A DNA stretch of 64,000 nt, from IMG/VR virus record IMGVR_UViG_3300014205_000170, positions 256,001 through 320,000 of that record; one strand, given 5' to 3'. The notes beneath the pieces are model-generated. The model ran no database searches. It was given only the letters and a program-made list of their open reading frames with translations, and was not told where the DNA came from. The stretch is from a virus. Lineage: Duplodnaviria > Caudoviricetes. Of the stretch, positions 5,867 through 55,235 are shown piece after piece. The translations under genes and the position numbers were made by a program. Each line of letters begins with the position of its first letter. Position 1 is the stretch's first letter.

Positions 5867-6433
5867 ATGCCAATATTCGTTACAATACCTAAAATACTTC
5901 AATATTTACAAACACGTCTTGTTTTAATAGAAAAAATAATTAAATCAAAGCCAAAAACAGTAGCAATTCCACGACTAATAGAAGAACCAAGACCAAATAG
6001 ATTTAGACCAGTTCCTATTGAACAAGAACCAAAAAGAAATAATAGATTTATTGTAATATTACCGCCTGAGTTTGGAATAGAATCATATTTTATTCAAAAA
6101 ATCAATAGACCCAAAATATCTTTTACACAAAATAAATATGAATGGGCAAATATAGAATTGGAATTATTCGATGTAATTGGTCCATCTACAACAAAAGCAA
6201 TATATAAAATAATTGATTTTTGTCAAGAACATAAAAATTTAAATGTAAAAGAAAATTTTTTATTTAGTTTATCAATTCAATCTTTAGACCCTGTAGGATG
6301 TGTTGTAGAGGAGTGGGTTATCGATATAAAAGAGATATTAAATATAGATTTTGGAGATTGTGATTACAGCAATGATGATGTTCAAAAAATAAAAATTTTG
6401 ATTAAACCCTATAATTGCGAATTAGTTAATTAA
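5867..6433 (+). CDS. Tail-tube (gp19-like) paralogue with N-terminal extension carrying the TRLVLIEK tag
   Basis: EPKRNNRF...RPKI...W..IELELFDVIGPS...LDPVGCVVEEW...DFGDCDYS matches T4-like tube proteins. Confidence 0.75.
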   Translation: MPIFVTIPKILQYLQTRLVLIEKIIKSKPKTVAIPRLIEEPRPNRFRPVPIEQEPKRNNRFIVILPPEFGIESYFIQKINRPKISFTQNKYEWANIELELFDVIGPSTTKAIYKIIDFCQEHKNLNVKENFLFSLSIQSLDPVGCVVEEWVIDIKEILNIDFGDCDYSNDDVQKIKILIKPYNCELVN

Positions 6434-35959: not shown

Positions 35960-36424
35960 TTACTTATCCAAAATCATATCAAAAGAGATAATATTATGAA
36001 ATTGCACTACATCATTTTCAATAGTTCCTGTTGCTCTCAACGAAGTCCTAATTAAGTTATTCAAATATAATTCATGAATAAATTGAGACTTATCAGTATT
36101 TAAAAATTGAATTGTGCCATACACAACTTTATCTTGAATATATATATTCTTTATTATGTGAGTACTATTTTTAAGGTCAACAACAGTTCCGCTACCACCC
36201 TGTAATTCTTGTGCACCAAAAAATTCTCCCAACAAAAAGTCTGTTGATGTGTTTTTTATACAATCTTCTAATGAAATCCAATTAACTTCTCCATAACCCC
36301 AATAAGGAGATTTAAAATCTGTTAAAAAAACATTTTTAAAAACATTATTGTATTTTTCAAATAAAACTTTTCTATTACCCAAATGCCTATCAACATTTAA
36401 AGTAGTGATTGGAAACATTCCCAT
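35960..36424 (-). CDS. Degenerate prohead-protease (gp21-like) paralogue with NRKVLFEK tag
   Basis: LGEFFGA (vs LGELxHP), VDLKNSTHII, VYGTIQFLNT, SLRATG (vs SSRGxG), ISFDMI. Confidence 0.7.
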   Translation of the reverse strand: MGMFPITTLNVDRHLGNRKVLFEKYNNVFKNVFLTDFKSPYWGYGEVNWISLEDCIKNTSTDFLLGEFFGAQELQGGSGTVVDLKNSTHIIKNIYIQDKVVYGTIQFLNTDKSQFIHELYLNNLIRTSLRATGTIENDVVQFHNIISFDMILDK

Positions 36425-49164: not shown

Positions 49165-49517
49165 TTTTCATTTATAGATTTATGATGTAATCTAACTTCT
49201 TCTATTGGCCAATGCTCCAGAGAAGTTTGTATTTCTGAAATTTCTGCTTTATCAACCCAAAAAAATATTTTCGAATTCATTGCAGTTGAACAAACATTGA
49301 ATTTGTCTGTTTCAATACAAAAACCCACAACAATAAGTGGGTCATCAGAATAAACAATATTATCTTTTCCTAATGTTTTATCTTTAAGCAAAAAAGCATA
49401 TGATACATGTATCGATACGCTGTCTGTGTCCCAGTTAATGTCCGTATTAAATAACGCATCATTATATTTTACATGACCTTTTTTGGAAAATAATATTTCA
49501 TCTGCATTAGGCATCAA
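49074..49517 (-). CDS. Hypothetical protein
   Basis: 147 aa ORF overlapping both neighbours. Confidence 0.5.
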   Translation of the reverse strand: MMPNADEILFSKKGHVKYNDALFNTDINWDTDSVSIHVSYAFLLKDKTLGKDNIVYSDDPLIVVGFCIETDKFNVCSTAMNSKIFFWVDKAEISEIQTSLEHWPIEEVRLHHKSINEKWMTIKTNTTKELSKNKTKLKKRELKGNKK

Positions 49518-50376
49518 AATGTTGTCTTAAAATAGAACTGTTAACGCGACATTTCAATATTTTTAAAGCGCCATCTTTAATTTGTCTTACTCTTTCTCTT
49601 GTTAACTCAAAATATTCACCAATTTCTTCTAAAGTCATAGCCTGTTGACCTAATAAACCAAAATACATACATACAACAGATTTTTGTCTTGGAGTAAGTC
49701 TATCCAACACTTTTTCTAAGTCCGCTTTCATAGACTCTTTATTTAGGTCACTATCAGGACTGATGCTATCTTTGTTTGGTATAAAATCCATTAACGTTAA
49801 AGCGCCATCATCTTCTGAAATAGGAGTTTCTAATGAAACCGTTCTACCGGTCATCATTCTTACATCCTTAACTTTAACATCAATGCCTTCTAAGGATTGT
49901 TGCACTTCATCATCTGTTGGTTCTCTTTCTAAAATTTGTTCAAGATTAGAAATTGCTTTATTTACTTTATATATGGATGAAGTTTGATTGCTTGGAATAC
50001 GAATTAATCTGGATTGCTCTGCAAGTGATTGCATTATAGCTTGTCTAATCCACCAAACAGCATAAGAAATAAATTTAAATCCACGATTAGAATCAAATTT
50101 TTTGGCTGCTTTTATTAAACCCAAATTACCTTCATTCACCAAATCTTCTAAAGGAAGACCACGATTTTGGTATTGTTTTGCGACGGATATAACAAAACGA
50201 AGGTTACCACGAACTAATTTATCTAAGGCTTTATCATCACCGCTAGTAGCTTTTTTGGCTAAATCAATTTCCTGGGTATCAGTAAGGAGAGGAATCTTAC
50301 TGATTTCATTAAAATATTTTGTAATGGATTCACTATCTCTATTAGTTATCCTTTTGGTAATCTTAAGTTGTCTCAT
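49507..50376 (-). CDS. rpoD: RNA polymerase sigma-70 factor, Bacteroidota RpoD type
   Basis: MRQLKIT, NLRFVISVAKQYQ, EGNLGLIKAA, FISYAVWWIRQ, MTLEEIGEYFELTRERVRQIK. Confidence 0.92.
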   Translation of the reverse strand: MRQLKITKRITNRDSESITKYFNEISKIPLLTDTQEIDLAKKATSGDDKALDKLVRGNLRFVISVAKQYQNRGLPLEDLVNEGNLGLIKAAKKFDSNRGFKFISYAVWWIRQAIMQSLAEQSRLIRIPSNQTSSIYKVNKAISNLEQILEREPTDDEVQQSLEGIDVKVKDVRMMTGRTVSLETPISEDDGALTLMDFIPNKDSISPDSDLNKESMKADLEKVLDRLTPRQKSVVCMYFGLLGQQAMTLEEIGEYFELTRERVRQIKDGALKILKCRVNSSILRQHFDA

Positions 50377-50452: not shown

Positions 50453-51328
50453 TTAGTTTAAATACTTACGAAGCAAGTTCGAACTACTAAACCTTCGCAA
50501 TCTTCTTAAAGCTTTTTCTTTGATTTGTCGAACACGTTCTGCAGAACAATCATATTTCAGTGCTATCTCTGAGAAAGACAAGGGTTGGCGACCATTTAAA
50601 CCAAAAAATAATTCAACCATTTCTCTTTCTTTTTCTGGTAATGTAGCAATGGCTCTATTCACATCTTTTTTAATAGATTCTGTTAATAACAGTGGCTTGT
50701 CTGGAGAGTAAATGTCACTGTCAAGAGGTTGTATAACATCTAATAATGATGGAGAAGTTTCATCATCAGAAAGAGGAGAATCATACGATTGAACTCTTTG
50801 CATAATTTTCATTAAATCACTTATCTCTTTTTGACCCAGACCCATTTTCTCCATTACTTCTTCATCGCATGGTGGTCGACTCAAATCTTGTTCTAATTTA
50901 GAATAAGCAGTTAAAAATTTATTTTGTAAAGAGATTTTATTTAAAGGGATTCTAATTAACCGGCTGTTATCTGCGATATTTTGAAGGATGGATTGTCTAA
51001 TCCACCAAACAGCAAACGAAATAAACTTAAAACCTCTAGTTTCATCGAATTTATAGGCAGCTTTAATAAGCCCTAAATTGCCCTCATTAATAAGGTCTTG
51101 TAAATCAATTCCACGATTCTGATACTGTTTGGCCACAGAGACAACAAAACGTAAATTAGCGCATACCATTTTGTTTAAAGCAGCTTTATCACCCTCTCTA
51201 ATTTTCCTTGTAAGCTCAATTTCTTCTTCATGTGTTATCATGGGAAGTTTGGCAAGTTCAGTAAGATATTTTTCAACCGATTTAGAACTTCGATTGGTAA
51301 CAGAGGGAGTAATTTTTAATTGTCTCAT
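50453..51328 (-). CDS. rpoD: Second RNA polymerase sigma-70 factor, Bacteroidota RpoD type
   Basis: MRQLKIT, NLRFVVSVAKQYQ, FISFAVWWIRQ, LSFSEIALKYDCSAERVRQIK. Confidence 0.92.
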   Translation of the reverse strand: MRQLKITPSVTNRSSKSVEKYLTELAKLPMITHEEEIELTRKIREGDKAALNKMVCANLRFVVSVAKQYQNRGIDLQDLINEGNLGLIKAAYKFDETRGFKFISFAVWWIRQSILQNIADNSRLIRIPLNKISLQNKFLTAYSKLEQDLSRPPCDEEVMEKMGLGQKEISDLMKIMQRVQSYDSPLSDDETSPSLLDVIQPLDSDIYSPDKPLLLTESIKKDVNRAIATLPEKEREMVELFFGLNGRQPLSFSEIALKYDCSAERVRQIKEKALRRLRRFSSSNLLRKYLN

Positions 51329-52236: not shown

Positions 52237-52479
52237 CTATATATTCCAGTCTAATTGATTAAAAAACGCTTTAATCACACCAAAAGATTCTTGGTCAAAA
52301 GTCTTAGCCGTAACCTCTCCTTTTTCATTAATAAAATTAATAGATAAAAACTTAATTTGTTGTCCTTTTTCTCTAAAAGTAACCAAATCAACTTCAAATT
52401 TACCTCCACCCTCTCCATCTGCTAAATGCAAATATGTGGTTTTTTCATTTCCTTGTCCTTGTGTATTGGTACTTTCCAT
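52237..52479 (-). CDS. Hypothetical protein
   Basis: 80 aa ORF preceded by a bipartite promoter. Confidence 0.6.
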   Translation of the reverse strand: MESTNTQGQGNEKTTYLHLADGEGGGKFEVDLVTFREKGQQIKFLSINFINEKGEVTAKTFDQESFGVIKAFFNQLDWNI

Positions 52480-52533: not shown

Positions 52534-52767
52534 TCAAAATGAAACAACACCATATAGATTATGGTTCACTTGAATTTTAGCATATCTAGAAGTTACTTTT
52601 TTAGATGGAGTAAAATCATCCACAATAATTGACGTATTATACATAGGTATATAAGGAGCAAAAATATAACCTGCCTCATATTCAAATCGTTTACGTTTTT
52701 TTTCAAACAATACTTTTCGAGTATATGAATCTTTATTTTCTTTTATAATATTATGATGGAAATTCAT
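52534..52767 (-). CDS. Major capsid protein (gp23-like) C-terminal fragment with TRKVLFEK tag
   Basis: EAGYIFAPYIPM...FTPSKKVTSRYAK..VN..LYG matches the conserved T4-like MCP C-terminal GxxxAPYxP...FxPxxGxxTRY block. Confidence 0.75.
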   Translation of the reverse strand: MNFHHNIIKENKDSYTRKVLFEKKRKRFEYEAGYIFAPYIPMYNTSIIVDDFTPSKKVTSRYAKIQVNHNLYGVVSF

Positions 52768-52922
52768 TTACTTTTTCCTTTTTTAAATTCAAAACTTACA
52801 CTAGTATTTCCTTCAAAAGCAACTATCGTATTTTTTGGAGACAAAACAACTAAATTAAGGTCATTTGAGATTTTTTCAAATAAAACCATTTTTTTATATA
52901 ATGTTGTTATAGTTCCTTCCAC
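52764..52922 (-). CDS. 52-aa protein with KKMVLFEK tag (missed by the ORF track)
   Basis: GTG start: MEGTITTLYKKMVLFEKISNDLNLVVLSPKNTIVAFEGNTSVSFEFKKGKSK*; ATGA overlap with 52767. Confidence 0.65.
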   Translation of the reverse strand: MEGTITTLYKKMVLFEKISNDLNLVVLSPKNTIVAFEGNTSVSFEFKKGKSK

Positions 52923-52924
52923 TA

Positions 52925-53113
52925 TTATTTTGTTTTAAAAATATTTATTGCGTCTAATGTTAAAAGTAATAATTTTCTTGTCATTCCCCAATAGATTTTC
53001 ATTCTTTTCAAAAAACTAATTGAAATTTCTTCTGTCTTCTCAATAATAACAAAACGCGTATTGTCATGCATTATTAAATCAAAATCTTCTGGCTTTTCAA
53101 CAAAATCTCTCAT
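52925..53113 (-). CDS. 62-aa protein with TRFVIIEK tag
   Basis: Coupled to the Hc1-like gene by TAATG. Confidence 0.6.
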   Translation of the reverse strand: MRDFVEKPEDFDLIMHDNTRFVIIEKTEEISISFLKRMKIYWGMTRKLLLLTLDAINIFKTK

Positions 53114-53328
53114 TAATATTGACTCTTATTATCTTGCCTTTGCTTTTGTATACTTAATCTAAGAGGCAAGATTAATTCTTCAATCAATTTCAATTTTTTT
53201 CGAGCCCTAACAGAAGCTGTATCATTTTTAGTTTTACCTATAAATTTATACAACTCAGATTCACTTTCGTTTAACAGCTTTCTGATTTTTTGAAATTGCT
53301 CATCTATATTATAATCGTCATAAAACAT
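53113..53328 (-). CDS. Histone H1-like Hc1-family protein
   Basis: KF..KNDTASVRARKKL...LRLSIQ matches the Hc1 GNKAAGxRARK motif. Confidence 0.7.
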   Translation of the reverse strand: MFYDDYNIDEQFQKIRKLLNESESELYKFIGKTKNDTASVRARKKLKLIEELILPLRLSIQKQRQDNKSQY

Positions 53329-53339
53329 TTTTTATTTTT

Positions 53340-55235
53340 TTAATCTAAAATTTCACCTTCTTTTTTATTGATTCCATCTTCAAGGCTCTTGAGATGATTT
53401 TCAATATTTTCCATTAGCATTTTTGTTCTATGATTTACAGCTGCATTATTTTTTTGTAACTTCGTAGGTTGGTTTTTTTTAGGTGCTCCTTCTGAAAGTG
53501 GTTCTTCCGGAATCGTTTCTTCTCCTCCTTCACCACCTTCTGCACCAGCTTCTGCTCCTAAGTTTTCTCCTCCGGCTTCACCGCCTAAGCCTCCCATATC
53601 AGCTCCGCCACCCATATCAACTCCACCACCTAAGCCACCGCCAAGACTACTGCTTATTCCTGCACCAGCACTTGCTCCCATATCAGCTCCACCACCCATG
53701 TCACCATTAGCTGCATCAGGTTGTGCTCCTGGTACAAAATCTGGTCTTCTGAATTTTTTATCAAGGTCTACAAATATTCCAGTTTCAATATATTCAGCAG
53801 CAGCGCCCTCAATTTCAGAAAACATCTTACGTTCAATTTTCTTCTGTCTAATAATTTGTTTTATTTCAGCCTCAGAAAAACCCATAATATATTGCATTGC
53901 CCAAGTATAAGACACTGGAGAAGTAGGTTCAGGAGTAAACATAGCTTGAAACACTTCTAAACGTGCTTTCATTGTTTCCAACTTAAGCAACTCTTGTTGA
54001 GTTGAAGGATTTGCTAATGTTAATTGAAAATTATCTATTTCATCTTCTAGACCTAAAAAATATAAATGAATATTTGCAACTCTTCTTAATTCTATAATAA
54101 TGAATTGTTGAAGTCTGTTTATAGTTCTTGAAAATCTTAAATCCGCTTGAGAAAGTGCTGAACCTCCCGGAATAGTTTCTGCATAATTTAAATAAGGTTT
54201 TGGAACTTTTAAAGCCGCAAATAATTTATTTTGTAGATATTCAATATCCGCAATATCATTTAAATTAGATGCACCTGGTAATGTTTCAATTCTAGAACTT
54301 TTATCTCCTCTTACTGGTAAAAAATAATCTTCTTCATAAGTAATAGGACTATATTTTAAATTTATATTTCCAGTTGTCGGGTCTACTAAAGGAGCTTTTT
54401 TAACTTGCGCTTTAGTTTTCTCCATAAATTGAGGCACATCTGCAGGGTCTATATTTCCAACTTCAATAAAATATACTCTACGCTCTGGTGCTCTTACTAA
54501 TCTATAAACCAACATAGCATCTTCCGCTAATTGTAATTGTTTCCACAATTTTCGAGCTGGTTCTAAAACAGAACGACCATATGGTAATCGACTACTATCA
54601 GAAAGTAATCTAAAGTGTGCAATTTGCCATTCCTCAAAGAACATATTGCCAACATCCCATCTAAATCTACATTTACCCAATTCATTCGTTGGAGATTCTT
54701 CTCTATGAATTTCTCCAACTGGTAATTGAATAATATCATAAACACCTCTTTCTTGGTCTATTTCCAATTTTAAAAATAAATCACCAAATTTTAACAATTC
54801 TCTAGACCAAAAACCAAGATTATAATTTACATTAAGAACATTATAAAATAAATCTTTTAAAGTCTTTTTTACTCTCGAATTTTCACTGTATATAGTTAAA
54901 ATTTCACCTTGTTCAGAACGCGTTACACATTCATCAGCTAAAATATCCAATGCCGCAGAAACTTCCGGAGATTGGTCCATTGCTCTATAATCTTGATAAG
55001 ATGTAAATCTATCTGCTTCATAATATAAAGAACGTGAATATAAATCTTGTGCAATTTTTGAAGATTGTATATCTAAAAATTCTTGTTGTTTTTGTTGTTT
55101 GGATGCAAAAGGATTACTTAAAGCCGGTGTGCTTACAAGTATGTTTTTATTGGTTTCTTCCGCGCTTTGAGGTCGCTGTCTTCTCAGAGCTCTAAACACC
55201 CCTGCGAATATACTATCATCATATTTTTCAGCCAT
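53340..55235 (-). CDS. Portal protein, T4 gp20-like
   Basis: YRAMDQSPEVSAALDILADE, HFRL, PYGRSVLE, LAEDAMLVYRLVRAPERRVYFIEVGN, EDYFLPVRG, LFAALKVP; Gly/acidic tail. Confidence 0.95.
   Translation of the reverse strand: MAEKYDDSIFAGVFRALRRQRPQSAEETNKNILVSTPALSNPFASKQQKQQEFLDIQSSKIAQDLYSRSLYYEADRFTSYQDYRAMDQSPEVSAALDILADECVTRSEQGEILTIYSENSRVKKTLKDLFYNVLNVNYNLGFWSRELLKFGDLFLKLEIDQERGVYDIIQLPVGEIHREESPTNELGKCRFRWDVGNMFFEEWQIAHFRLLSDSSRLPYGRSVLEPARKLWKQLQLAEDAMLVYRLVRAPERRVYFIEVGNIDPADVPQFMEKTKAQVKKAPLVDPTTGNINLKYSPITYEEDYFLPVRGDKSSRIETLPGASNLNDIADIEYLQNKLFAALKVPKPYLNYAETIPGGSALSQADLRFSRTINRLQQFIIIELRRVANIHLYFLGLEDEIDNFQLTLANPSTQQELLKLETMKARLEVFQAMFTPEPTSPVSYTWAMQYIMGFSEAEIKQIIRQKKIERKMFSEIEGAAAEYIETGIFVDLDKKFRRPDFVPGAQPDAANGDMGGGADMGASAGAGISSSLGGGLGGGVDMGGGADMGGLGGEAGGENLGAEAGAEGGEGGEETIPEEPLSEGAPKKNQPTKLQKNNAAVNHRTKMLMENIENHLKSLEDGINKKEGEILD
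53560..53705 (-). repeat. Gly-rich DMGGG coding repeats in the portal tail
   Basis: DMGGGADMGASAGAG...GGGVDMGGGADMGGLGGE. Confidence 0.6.

What the first reader, a model, noticed from the sequence alone, without database searches (positions are those of the whole stretch)
52534..52767. 77-aa gene made of the RKVLFEK tag plus the last ~50 residues of a T4-like major capsid protein
EAGYIFAPYIPMYNTSIIVDDFTPSKKVTSRYAKIQVNHNLYGVVSF reproduces the conserved C-terminal block of gp23-like MCPs. It has its own ATG, is translationally coupled (ATGA) to an upstream tagged gene and is far too short to form an HK97 fold. It is the clearest minimal 'tag + epitope' construct in the window.
Basis: partly seen in the sequence, partly recalled or inferred. 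Interest (0 to 1): 0.8.

Follow-up and report, generated by a model that had tools for sequence, protein, structure and literature searches.

The report
Tagged mini-gene copying capsid protein hairpin
A 519-kb uncultured phage keeps a tiny, fast-evolving gene that copies only one conserved hairpin of its own capsid protein and carries the phage's common 8-residue peptide tag; related phages have the same kind of gene, so it is a working peptide mimic rather than a dead fragment, though what it binds is unknown.

Summary
Window 52534-52767 (-) is an intact 77-codon ORF. Its ATG overlaps the stop of the upstream tagged ORF (ATGA). It matches residues 440-506 of the phage's own 519-aa gp23-type capsid protein (MCP), which lies outside the window (47% identity, E 7e-12).

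It is not an in-situ pseudogene: no other MCP-like sequence lies within 4 kb. It is also not a singleton. Syntenic orthologues of 83, 116, 117 and 208 aa sit downstream of the portal gene in related contigs. More distant relatives share the backbone but lack the whole tagged cassette.

By alignment to T4 gp23, the block is the P-domain beta-hairpin with the P loop. The tag T-R-x-V-L-x-E-K is inserted in the preceding loop. AlphaFold2 predicts no fold for the protein alone.

These mini-proteins change amino acids 3-4 times faster than neighbouring genes, yet keep the gp23-family invariant residues and the tag. A 389-kb relative has its own MCP-block mini-genes with a different tag (MRKxFY).

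Best reading (0.4): a tagged peptide mimic used in conflict with host sensors or rival phages. Capsid cargo and assembly modulator remain open.

The parts
52534..52767 (-). 77-aa mini-MCP gene, including the stop codon
   Evidence: ORF list. BLASTP to own MCP residues 440-506, E 6.6e-12. Syntenic orthologues in L166, L159, L157 and L168.
52764..52767 (-). ATGA overlap: start of the 77-aa gene overlaps the stop of the upstream 52-aa tagged gene
   Evidence: Read directly from the sequence.
52723..52755 (-). Residues 5-15: weak remnant of the MCP strand that ends in K-D-P-Y (own MCP about 434-443)
   Evidence: BLASTP pairs K-D-S-Y with K-D-P-Y. The 116/117-aa orthologues keep K-Y-K-I-Y-K-H-P before the tag. 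This assignment is inferred.
52699..52722 (-). Tag T-R-K-V-L-F-E-K (residues 16-23), inserted in the loop between two MCP strands
   Evidence: Motif search. Genome census 177 of 857 ORFs against 8.7 in shuffles. R17, E22 and K23 are conserved in orthologues.
52543..52695 (-). Residues 25-75: MCP C-terminal block, the P-domain beta-hairpin (T4 gp23 about 440-490)
   Evidence: Pfam Gp23 profile 309-349. HMMER alignment of own MCP to T4 gp23 chains. [quoted passage not shown]
52615..52641 (-). Residues 43-51: equivalent of the T4 gp23 P loop (T457, R460, G461). Variable among the mini-proteins.
   Evidence: Residue mapping. P-loop head-length mutations (PMC9546572). Column conservation.
52764..52922 (-). 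Upstream 52-aa tagged gene (K-M-V-L-F-E-K), part of the same accessory cassette
   Evidence: Orthologues of 51-54 aa with K-T-V-L-V-E-K or R-V-V-L-I-E-K.
52925..53113 (-). 62-aa tagged gene (T-R-F-V-I-I-E-K), first gene of the cassette
   Evidence: Orthologues of 57-69 aa with R-F-V-I-F-E-K.
53113..53328 (-). Backbone gene: 71-aa Hc1-like basic protein directly after the portal gene (context)
   Evidence: Pfam Hc1 PF07432, 25.5 bits against a 23.5-bit cut-off. Present in all relatives; dN/dS 0.015-0.17 where dS could be estimated.
53340..55235 (-). T4-type portal gene (context, anchor for synteny)
   Evidence: Pfam Portal_T4, E 6.7e-75. Used to fetch syntenic loci.
52237..52479 (-). Backbone gene: 80-aa protein that closes the cassette on the downstream side (context)
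   Evidence: Present in all relatives, including those without the cassette.

Best explanation
The 77-aa ORF is a real gene kept by selection. It derives from the MCP and encodes an intrinsically disordered copy of one segment: the two P-domain beta-strands and the P loop of gp23. The phage's genome-wide tag T-R-x-V-L-x-E-K is spliced into the loop before that segment.

It belongs to a lineage-specific accessory cassette of three tagged mini-genes inserted between the portal-associated backbone genes. It is probably co-transcribed with the late head genes.

I infer that it works by molecular mimicry. The peptide presents the invariant residues of this MCP segment (G-Y-x-x-A-P-Y-I-P, F-x-P, S-R-Y, N, Y-G) to a factor that recognises them in the real capsid protein. 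The tag couples it to whatever reads the tag on the other tagged small proteins, about 21% of ORFs.

The most likely use is in conflict: as a decoy or antagonist for a host sensor of capsid peptides, or as a poison subunit against related co-infecting phages.

Shown here: gene status, MCP origin, orthology, fast evolution with retained invariants, and lack of an autonomous fold. Inferred: binding partner, role of the tag, and biological purpose.
For: - MCP origin: E 6.6e-12 against own MCP. Orthologues exceed the Pfam Gp23 cut-off: the 208-aa form scores 67.7 bits and the 116-aa form 31.3 bits.
- Not a local relic: no other MCP sequence within 4 kb either side.
- Maintained: intact syntenic orthologues in at least four other lineages (L166 83 aa, L159 116 aa, L157 117 aa, L168 208 aa). 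Chance open-frame probabilities are 1e-3 to 8e-9.
- Accessory: relatives L164, L170 and L172 have the same backbone (portal, 74 aa, 97-99 aa, 275-278 aa, two sigma genes) without the cassette.
- Fast evolution: dN about 0.5, against about 0.15 for neighbouring genes. dN/dS is 0.25-0.70, against roughly 0.02-0.17 for the Hc1-like and 266-aa backbone genes; the 80-aa backbone gene is intermediate (0.10-0.37). The least saturated pair gives 0.60.
- Selective retention: G33, Y34, A37, P38, Y39, I40, P41, F52, P54, S60, R61, Y62, N68, Y72 and the tag residues R17, E22, K23 are kept. P-loop and basic residues that are fixed in MCPs are free in the mini-proteins.
- One tag per block survives gene fission: L166 has 125-aa and 83-aa genes where L168 has one 208-aa gene.
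- Disordered alone: AF2 pLDDT 63 with no strands; the ESM Atlas model has pLDDT 0.32. In the 208-aa form only the spine helix is confident.
- Recurrence: 72 of 83 library hits are 250 aa or shorter, and 8 carry the strict tag.
- Two more MCP-block genes with tags lie in this genome.
- Parallel system: a 389-kb relative puts a different tag (MRKxFY) on MCP-block mini-genes.
- Other tagged cut-down copies in the window: protease-like and tail-tube-like ORFs.
- MCP peptides and MCPs are known immune triggers: Avs7 and Dsr1 sense MCP (PMC13581612).
Against:
- There is no expression or proteome evidence.
- dN/dS up to 0.6-0.7 also fits weak constraint, and dS is saturated for most pairs.
- The progressive shrinking from 208 to 77 aa could be slow decay.
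- Fold-recognising sensors such as Avs would not be expected to bind a disordered 50-residue peptide.
- The residues that make inter-capsomer contacts in T4 (P loop, basic patch) are not conserved in the mini-proteins. This argues against exact interface mimicry.
- The position in the late head operon, at the place of T4 genes 67 and 68, and the L-x-E core of the tag fit a capsid-cargo role equally well.
Confidence: 0.4

Rival explanations
1. Capsid cargo or prohead-core peptide. The tag is a T4 gp21-type cleavage or targeting signal (L/I-x-E then K). The mini-protein is loaded into the prohead with the other tagged small proteins, is cut there, and either stays as an internal peptide or is ejected into the next host. 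This reading can be combined with the decoy reading.
For: - The cassette sits directly after the portal gene, where T4 has the prohead-core genes 67 and 68. T4 core and internal proteins are listed in PMC9546572.
- The tag core V-L-x-E fits the T4 L/I-x-E rule (established knowledge).
- In the 134-aa MCP-fragment gene, the tag R-I-V-I-F-E-K sits exactly where the MCP has its presumed maturation site M-L-N-E.
- Tags lie between modules in the 208-aa form, as in a polyprotein.
- Tagged proteins are small, with a median of 124 aa.
- T4 internal-protein loci are also hypervariable (established knowledge).
Against: - 177 different tagged proteins (21% of ORFs) is far more than any known capsid cargo set.
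- 64 tags lie within the last 15 residues, where cleavage would remove almost nothing.
- The true MCP lacks the extended consensus.
- The analogous tag in the 389-kb relative (MRKxFY) has no Glu and so no L-x-E site.
Confidence: 0.25
2. Regulator of the phage's own capsid assembly. The hairpin peptide pairs with unassembled or partly folded MCP. It would take the place of, or dock beside, the MCP's own P-domain strands. In this way it would delay, chaperone or cap shell growth, for example at the portal vertex.
For: - The block is the P-domain sheet and P loop. In T4 this element anchors capsomers at quasi-threefold axes, carries head-length mutations (T457, R460, G461) and carries the gp31-bypass mutation A455V (PMC9546572; mapping).
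- The gene lies next to the portal gene in the late head operon.
- The conserved residues are the strand-core residues that a strand-pairing mechanism would need.
Against: - Close relatives with the same head genes lack the cassette, so it is not needed for assembly.
- The P loop and basic contact residues are not conserved.
- This reading does not explain the tagged fragments of tail tube, protease and other proteins, or the tag itself.
- Evolution this fast is unusual for an assembly factor that must match an almost frozen MCP block (own MCP against G013 MCP, 87% identity).
Confidence: 0.15
3. Decaying remnant of a duplicated or captured MCP gene that is open by chance or only recently inactivated. 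It would have no function.
For: - The gene is the shortest of a shrinking series (208, 117, 116, 83, 77 aa).
- dN/dS reaches 0.6-0.7.
- The 77-aa protein alone falls just under the Pfam cut-off.
- The word-index search found no orthologue of similar length.
Against: - The frame is open in every lineage examined, although dS is about 0.4-1.7 and the chance of an open frame is 1e-3 or lower.
- The tag and the gp23-family invariant residues are specifically retained.
- The start overlaps the upstream stop (ATGA) and packing is tight.
- No flanking MCP debris is present.
- The same architecture occurs in many metagenomic proteins, and in another phage with a different tag.
Confidence: 0.05

Closest known systems
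T4 gp23 major capsid protein (Pfam PF07068; PDB 5VF3, 7VS5, 8T9R)
   Same: Clear sequence homology to the P-domain beta-hairpin block (T4 residues about 440-490). The family invariants G-Y-x-Y-A-P-Y, F-x-P and R-Y are kept.
   Different: It covers only about one seventh of the protein. It has no N-arm, E-loop, spine helix, A domain or insertion domain, and no predicted fold. It carries an inserted tag and evolves many times faster than the MCP block.
T4 capsid targeting sequence on internal proteins IPI-III and Alt, removed by prohead protease gp21
   Same: A short shared peptide sits on small, otherwise unrelated, fast-evolving accessory proteins of a T4-type phage. The tag core L-x-E fits the gp21 site rule. 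The genes lie next to the head genes.
   Different: The tag is a strict 8-residue motif found at N-terminal, internal or C-terminal positions on about 21% of ORFs. It is not a roughly 10-residue N-terminal leader on a handful of proteins. Cleavage and packaging have not been shown.
Gol peptide of T4 gp23 (trigger of the Lit protease) and MCP-sensing immunity (CapRel, Avs7/Dsr1)
   Same: Short conserved MCP segments, or MCPs themselves, are what these defences detect. The sister fragment gene of this genome (134 aa) carries the block that aligns with T4 gp23 residues 94-122, by my recollection the Gol region. Avs7 and Dsr1 sense MCP (PMC13581612).
   Different: Those are host sensors and their natural triggers. 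No phage-encoded stand-alone MCP peptide is known to act as an antagonist, and none was tested here. The 77-aa gene carries the P-loop block, not the Gol block.
Satellite capsid-redirecting proteins (P4 Sid, SaPI CpmB, PICI Ccm, PLE TcaP)
   Same: They are small accessory proteins that act on a helper phage's MCP lattice in a conflict between mobile elements.
   Different: They share no sequence relationship with this gene. Except for Ccm, they are not MCP-derived, and Ccm is a complete HK97-fold protein. The comparison rests on my own knowledge, not on a test.

Membership tests
Gp23 major capsid protein family (PF07068) | Significant match to the family profile | tested here: inconclusive
   The 77-aa protein scores 22.9 bits, E 6.9e-5, below the 24.4-bit cut-off. 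Its orthologues score 31.3 and 67.7 bits, and BLASTP to the phage's own MCP gives E 6.6e-12. Homology to a part of gp23 is therefore secure.
Gp23 major capsid protein family (PF07068) | Complete HK97-type fold (N-arm, E-loop, P domain with spine helix, A domain) able to form capsomers | tested here: not met
   The protein has 77 residues and covers only profile positions 309-349 of 376. AF2 gives no secondary structure and pTM 0.14. It is an MCP-derived fragment, not a capsid protein.
T4-type capsid-targeting-sequence cargo (IPI-III, Alt) | Leader at the extreme N-terminus ending in an L/I-x-E protease site | tested here: inconclusive
   V-L-F-E is present at residues 19-22, preceded by 15 non-conserved residues. 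Genome-wide the tag is as often C-terminal or internal as N-terminal: 64, 56 and 57 cases.
T4-type capsid-targeting-sequence cargo (IPI-III, Alt) | Cleavage by the prohead protease and presence in virions | not testable with these tools
   The phage is uncultured and no proteome is available.
Genome-wide T-R-x-V-L-x-E-K tagged small proteins of this phage | One copy of the motif on a small protein, conserved at peptide level in orthologues | tested here: met
   The 77-aa protein has T-R-K-V-L-F-E-K at residues 16-23. Orthologues have T-R-S-V-L-F-E-K, T-R-I-V-L-F-E-K and T-R-V-V-L-F-E-K. The census gives 177 of 857 ORFs against 8.7 in shuffles, with varying codons.
Pseudogene remnant | Collinear eroded parent sequence in flanking frames, or a disrupted frame in relatives | tested here: not met
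   The next best tblastn hit of the MCP within 4 kb either side has E 0.57 and lies in the terminase gene. The frame is intact in all syntenic loci.

The most novel reading that the evidence does not exclude
Large T4-related phages encode libraries of short, disordered, tagged peptides. Each copies one invariant segment of a virion protein: capsid propeptide, N-arm (Gol) block, spine helix, P-loop hairpin, and pieces of tail tube, sheath, portal, terminase and protease. Each lineage uses its own tag (T-R-x-V-L-x-E-K here, MRKxFY in a 389-kb relative). Together these would form a previously undescribed counter-defence or inter-phage warfare system. In it, peptide mimics occupy the sensors, or the assembly interfaces of rival phages, that recognise those invariant segments, and the tag hands them to a common partner.
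Probability: 0.25. Interest if true: 0.9.

Novelty: categorically new. Interest (0 to 1): 0.72.

Why it matters
Capsid, portal, terminase and tail-tube proteins are the main molecular patterns that bacterial immune receptors detect. If phages make tagged peptide copies of the invariant parts of these proteins, that would be a new way of evading or manipulating such sensing, or of sabotaging competing phages. It would also make the question of which capsid segments are seen by immunity directly testable with defined peptides of 50-80 residues.

The family further shows that short 'Gp23 domain' proteins in metagenomes are not all assembly artefacts or pseudogenes. Finally, the fragments offer a handle on the unidentified reader of a tag carried by a fifth of this phage's proteins.

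Tried and rejected
- **Word-index homologue search.** It found only three short proteins and suggested a singleton. The exhaustive representative search overturned this.
- **Pattern search of viral contigs with the mini-protein alignment.** It was flooded by full-length MCP genes and was not useful.
- **Pfam search of ten larger relatives.** It found no MCP fragments, so the trait is patchy.
- **Tag derived from an MCP strand.** BLAST pairs the tag with G-T-V-L-I-G-H-K, whereas MAFFT pairs it with N-R-Y-V-V-Y-K-D. The 116/117-aa orthologues contain both MCP strands plus the tag. I therefore treat the tag as an insertion, not as MCP-derived.
- **A folded 'P-domain only' mini-protein.** AF2 models of the 77-aa and 208-aa forms show no such fold; only the spine helix is confident.
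- **DNA-level motif** (promoter or mobile repeat) as the explanation for either tag. Rejected because synonymous codons vary and the upstream DNA is not conserved.
- **Phylogeny of the C block.** It cannot tell a single origin from repeated origins. The mini-proteins are on long branches and are about as distant from each other (mean 42% identity) as from MCPs (mean 47%).
- **Literature searches.** They found no description of tagged MCP-fragment genes.

Full report
**1. The observation**

The window is bases 256001-320000 of a 518,809-bp virus record with direct terminal repeats. Its ATG overlaps the TGA of the upstream 52-aa ORF (ATGA at 52767-52764). That upstream ORF carries K-M-V-L-F-E-K.

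Pfam Gp23 matches residues 26-66 to profile positions 309-349 of 376. The score is 22.9 bits (E 6.9e-5), just below the 24.4-bit cut-off. PHROG 138 'major head protein' gives E 0.007.

The phage's full-length capsid protein lies outside the window, at genome 355857-357416, and is 519 aa long. BLASTP of it against all ORFs of the genome finds the 77-aa protein at E 6.6e-12, with 47% identity over MCP 440-506.

At this base composition an open frame of 77 codons has a chance of about 0.001.

**2. Not a local pseudogene**

- A permissive tblastn of the MCP against 4 kb on either side finds nothing besides the ORF. The next hit has E 0.57 and lies in the terminase gene.
- The six-frame HMM search of the whole genome finds no neighbouring piece.

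That search instead finds two further MCP-fragment genes far away:
- Genome 432124-432528 (134 aa) covers MCP 19-107, E 2e-18.
- Genome 469916-470308 (130 aa) covers MCP 275-328, E 3e-10.

Both carry tag-like motifs. In the first, R-I-V-I-F-E-K is inserted exactly where the MCP has its presumed maturation site M-L-N-E, and R-V-L-I-E-K ends the protein. In the second, the motifs are R-E-I-L-V-E-K and R-I-V-I-C-E-K.

**3. The tag**

I repeated the census independently.
- [RK]x[VI][LFMI]xE[KR] occurs in 177 of 857 non-overlapping ORFs, against 8.7 in shuffled proteins.
- There is nearly always one copy per protein.
- Codons at the synonymous positions vary, so the motif is selected as a peptide.
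- Tagged proteins are small: the median is 124 aa and only three reach 300 aa.
- The tag is N-terminal in 57 proteins, C-terminal in 64 and internal in 56.

Earlier notes of this scan had already described the tag and other cut-down virion proteins in this genome. I used them only as leads.

**4. Orthologues and anatomy**

The word-index search suggested a singleton. The exhaustive search of 1.84 billion cluster representatives gave 84 proteins at E of 1e-3 or better. Of the 83 that are not the query itself, 72 are 250 aa or shorter, and 8 carry the strict tag N-terminal of the same block.

One of these, P0005, lies on an 18-kb viral contig with perfect synteny to the window. The gene order is terminase, portal, 71-aa Hc1-like gene, tagged 69-aa gene, tagged 53-aa gene, tagged 125-aa gene, the 83-aa mini-MCP, a 78-aa gene, a 288-aa gene and two sigma genes.

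Fetching loci through the portal protein gave a series at the same position:
- **208 aa** (L168, L169, L177): tag, a small Trp/Gly-rich module, the MCP spine-helix block, a second tag, a second module, then the C block.
- **116 and 117 aa** (L159/L160 and L156-L158).
- **125 aa plus 83 aa** (L166), a fission of the long form in which each product keeps one tag.
- **77 aa** (this window).

More distant relatives (L164, L170, L172; portal 59-64% identical) have the same backbone genes but no tagged cassette at all. The cassette is therefore an accessory insertion, and the 77-aa gene is its most reduced mini-MCP.

The 116/117-aa forms contain the MCP strand K-Y-K-I-Y-K-H-P, then the tag, then the strand that precedes E-A-G-Y. 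The tag is therefore inserted in an MCP loop and is not a prefix. The 77-aa protein is MCP-derived from about residue 5 to its end.

The orthologues exceed the Pfam cut-off, at 31.3 and 67.7 bits.

**5. Which part of the capsid protein**

HMMER aligns own MCP 463-494 with T4 gp23 448-478 (mature-chain numbering plus 65). Residue identities at 455, 457, 460 and 461 match those named in the T4 head structure paper:
- T457, R460 and G461 (head-length mutations) lie where three P loops meet at the quasi-threefold axes.
- The A-P linker is residues 486-502 (PMC9546572).

The mini-protein therefore holds strand, P loop and return strand at residues 33-42, 43-51 and 52-63.

AF2 with a 26-sequence alignment predicts no secondary structure (pLDDT 62.8, pTM 0.14). 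The ESM Atlas's own model has pLDDT 0.32. In the 208-aa form only the spine helix is confident. These proteins look like displayed peptides, not mini-domains.

**6. Selection**

Pairwise Nei-Gojobori estimates across five syntenic loci give the following:

| Gene | dN | dN/dS |
|---|---|---|
| mini-MCP | about 0.5 | 0.25-0.70 |
| mini-MCP, least saturated pair (L159-L157, dS 0.41) | 0.24 | 0.60 |
| Hc1-like 71-aa and 266-aa backbone genes | about 0.15 | roughly 0.02-0.17 |
| 80-aa backbone gene | 0.16-0.50 | 0.10-0.37 |

Column analysis shows what is kept and what is free.
- Kept in the mini-proteins: G33, Y34, A37, P38, Y39, I40, P41, F52, P54, S60, R61, Y62, N68, Y72, and the tag residues R17, E22 and K23.
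- Free in the mini-proteins although fixed in full MCPs: the P loop and several basic residues.

The MCP block itself is nearly frozen, at 87% identity between this phage and a 389-kb relative. The mini-protein is 47% identical to its own MCP and averages 42% identity to other mini-proteins.

This pattern means weak overall constraint with strong constraint on the family invariants and the tag. It does not fit neutral decay.

**7. A parallel system**

Three larger relatives show no excess of the tag (0.7-1.3% of ORFs, the level seen in shuffles):
- G013, 389 kb, MCP 67% identical.
- G006, 233 kb, MCP 82% identical.
- G011, 217 kb, portal 64% identical.

G013 nevertheless has MCP-fragment genes. 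Each begins with a different peptide, M-R-K-x-F-Y. This peptide heads at least 29 small ORFs in G013 and none in the other three genomes. Its synonymous codons vary and the upstream DNA is not conserved.

The G013 fragment genes include:
- a 72-aa gene with the C block (E 3e-5 against its own MCP);
- a 149-aa gene with the N-arm block (E 1e-3);
- weaker candidates for the propeptide, spine-helix and A-domain helix blocks.

Two lineages therefore attach a lineage-specific tag to single conserved MCP blocks.

**8. Interpretation**

Shown: the ORF is a real, maintained, accessory, fast-evolving gene of MCP origin. It lies in a late head operon, has no autonomous fold and belongs to a recurrent class.

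Inferred: it acts as a peptide mimic of the invariant hairpin, with the tag as a common handle.

| Reading | Weight |
|---|---|
| Conflict: decoy or antagonist of a host factor that recognises capsid peptides, or poison subunit for related phages | 0.4 |
| Capsid cargo with the tag as a gp21-type site | 0.25 |
| Regulator of the phage's own capsid assembly | 0.15 |
| Relic | 0.05 |
| Something else | remainder |

I favour the conflict reading for four reasons:
- The mimicked proteins, here and elsewhere in the genome, are the classes sensed by immunity (PMC13581612).
- Evolution is fast.
- The cassette is dispensable.
- The invariants, not the lattice contacts, are what is kept.

The cargo reading is compatible with the decoy reading.

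The host is probably in the Bacteroidota or Ignavibacteriota. The phage's sigma factor is 50-54% identical to their housekeeping sigma.

**9. Limits**

There is no expression, binding or cleavage evidence. dS is saturated for most pairs. 

Noticed in passing
window 53113-53328 (-): A 71-aa basic protein directly after the portal gene matches the chlamydial histone-like Hc1 family (PF07432, 25.5 bits against a 23.5-bit cut-off). It is the most conserved small gene of the locus (dN/dS 0.015-0.17 where dS could be estimated) and is present in all relatives. It may be a DNA-condensing head protein.
   Followed up: partly
window 49507-50376 and 50453-51328 (-): Two tandem sigma-70-family genes of 289 and 291 aa are conserved in all relatives. 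One is 50-54% identical to the housekeeping sigma of Bacteroidota and Ignavibacteriota, which suggests the host group.
   Followed up: partly
G013 (IMGVR_UViG_3300024262_006558), e.g. 223268-229682 and 371573-373615; loci L190, L197: A 389-kb relative starts at least 29 small ORFs with the peptide M-R-K-x-F-Y (varying codons, arrays of up to about 17 consecutive genes). Several of them carry single conserved blocks of its capsid protein, and one carries a sheath-like N-terminus. None of the other three genomes checked has this motif.
   Followed up: partly
L168 6001-10500; also L169, L177 and L170-L173, L176: In several relatives the portal match spans 2.2-2.8 kb for only 323-503 residues, and the next gene starts about 2.6 kb later than expected. 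The portal gene seems to carry a large insertion there, possibly an intein, an intron or a homing-endonuclease gene.
   Followed up: no
L168 10978-11604; L166 8497-8874; L162 8305-8625; L159 7036-7386: In the longer mini-MCPs the tags are followed by a roughly 30-residue Trp/Tyr/Gly-rich module (K-W-N-Y-I-D...G...W or G-L-K-Y-W-Y-D-K-N-G-K). It has no Pfam match. AF2 gives it short strands at low confidence.
   Followed up: partly
window 35960-36424 (-) and 5867-6433 (+): Other tagged cut-down virion-protein copies lie in the window. A 154-aa ORF with R-K-V-L-F-E-K matches a head maturation protease family (PHROG 207, E 1.4e-4). A 188-aa ORF matches a tail tube family (PHROG 4542, E 1.8e-10).
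   Followed up: partly
proteins P0011, P0031, P0041, P0051, P0058, P0068, P0078, P0086 (one search hits): A separate subfamily of 79-103-aa metagenomic proteins mostly begins at the MCP strand L-I-G-K-K. It carries the C block interrupted by a basic insert (R-K-x-K-I-N-K-I-F-N-L) and has no T-R-x-V-L-x-E-K tag. Their genomic context is unknown.
   Followed up: no
proteins P0064, P0070, P0074, P0083, P0021 (one search hits): Metagenomic proteins of 76-250 aa combine two or three MCP blocks (propeptide, N-arm, spine helix, C block), in some cases in an order different from that in the MCP.
   Followed up: no
genome 472490-473170 (-), outside the window: A 226-aa ORF that matches the loosened tag pattern is 25% identical to residues 36-194 of the large terminase (E 5e-6). 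It lies 2 kb from the 130-aa MCP-fragment gene.
   Followed up: no
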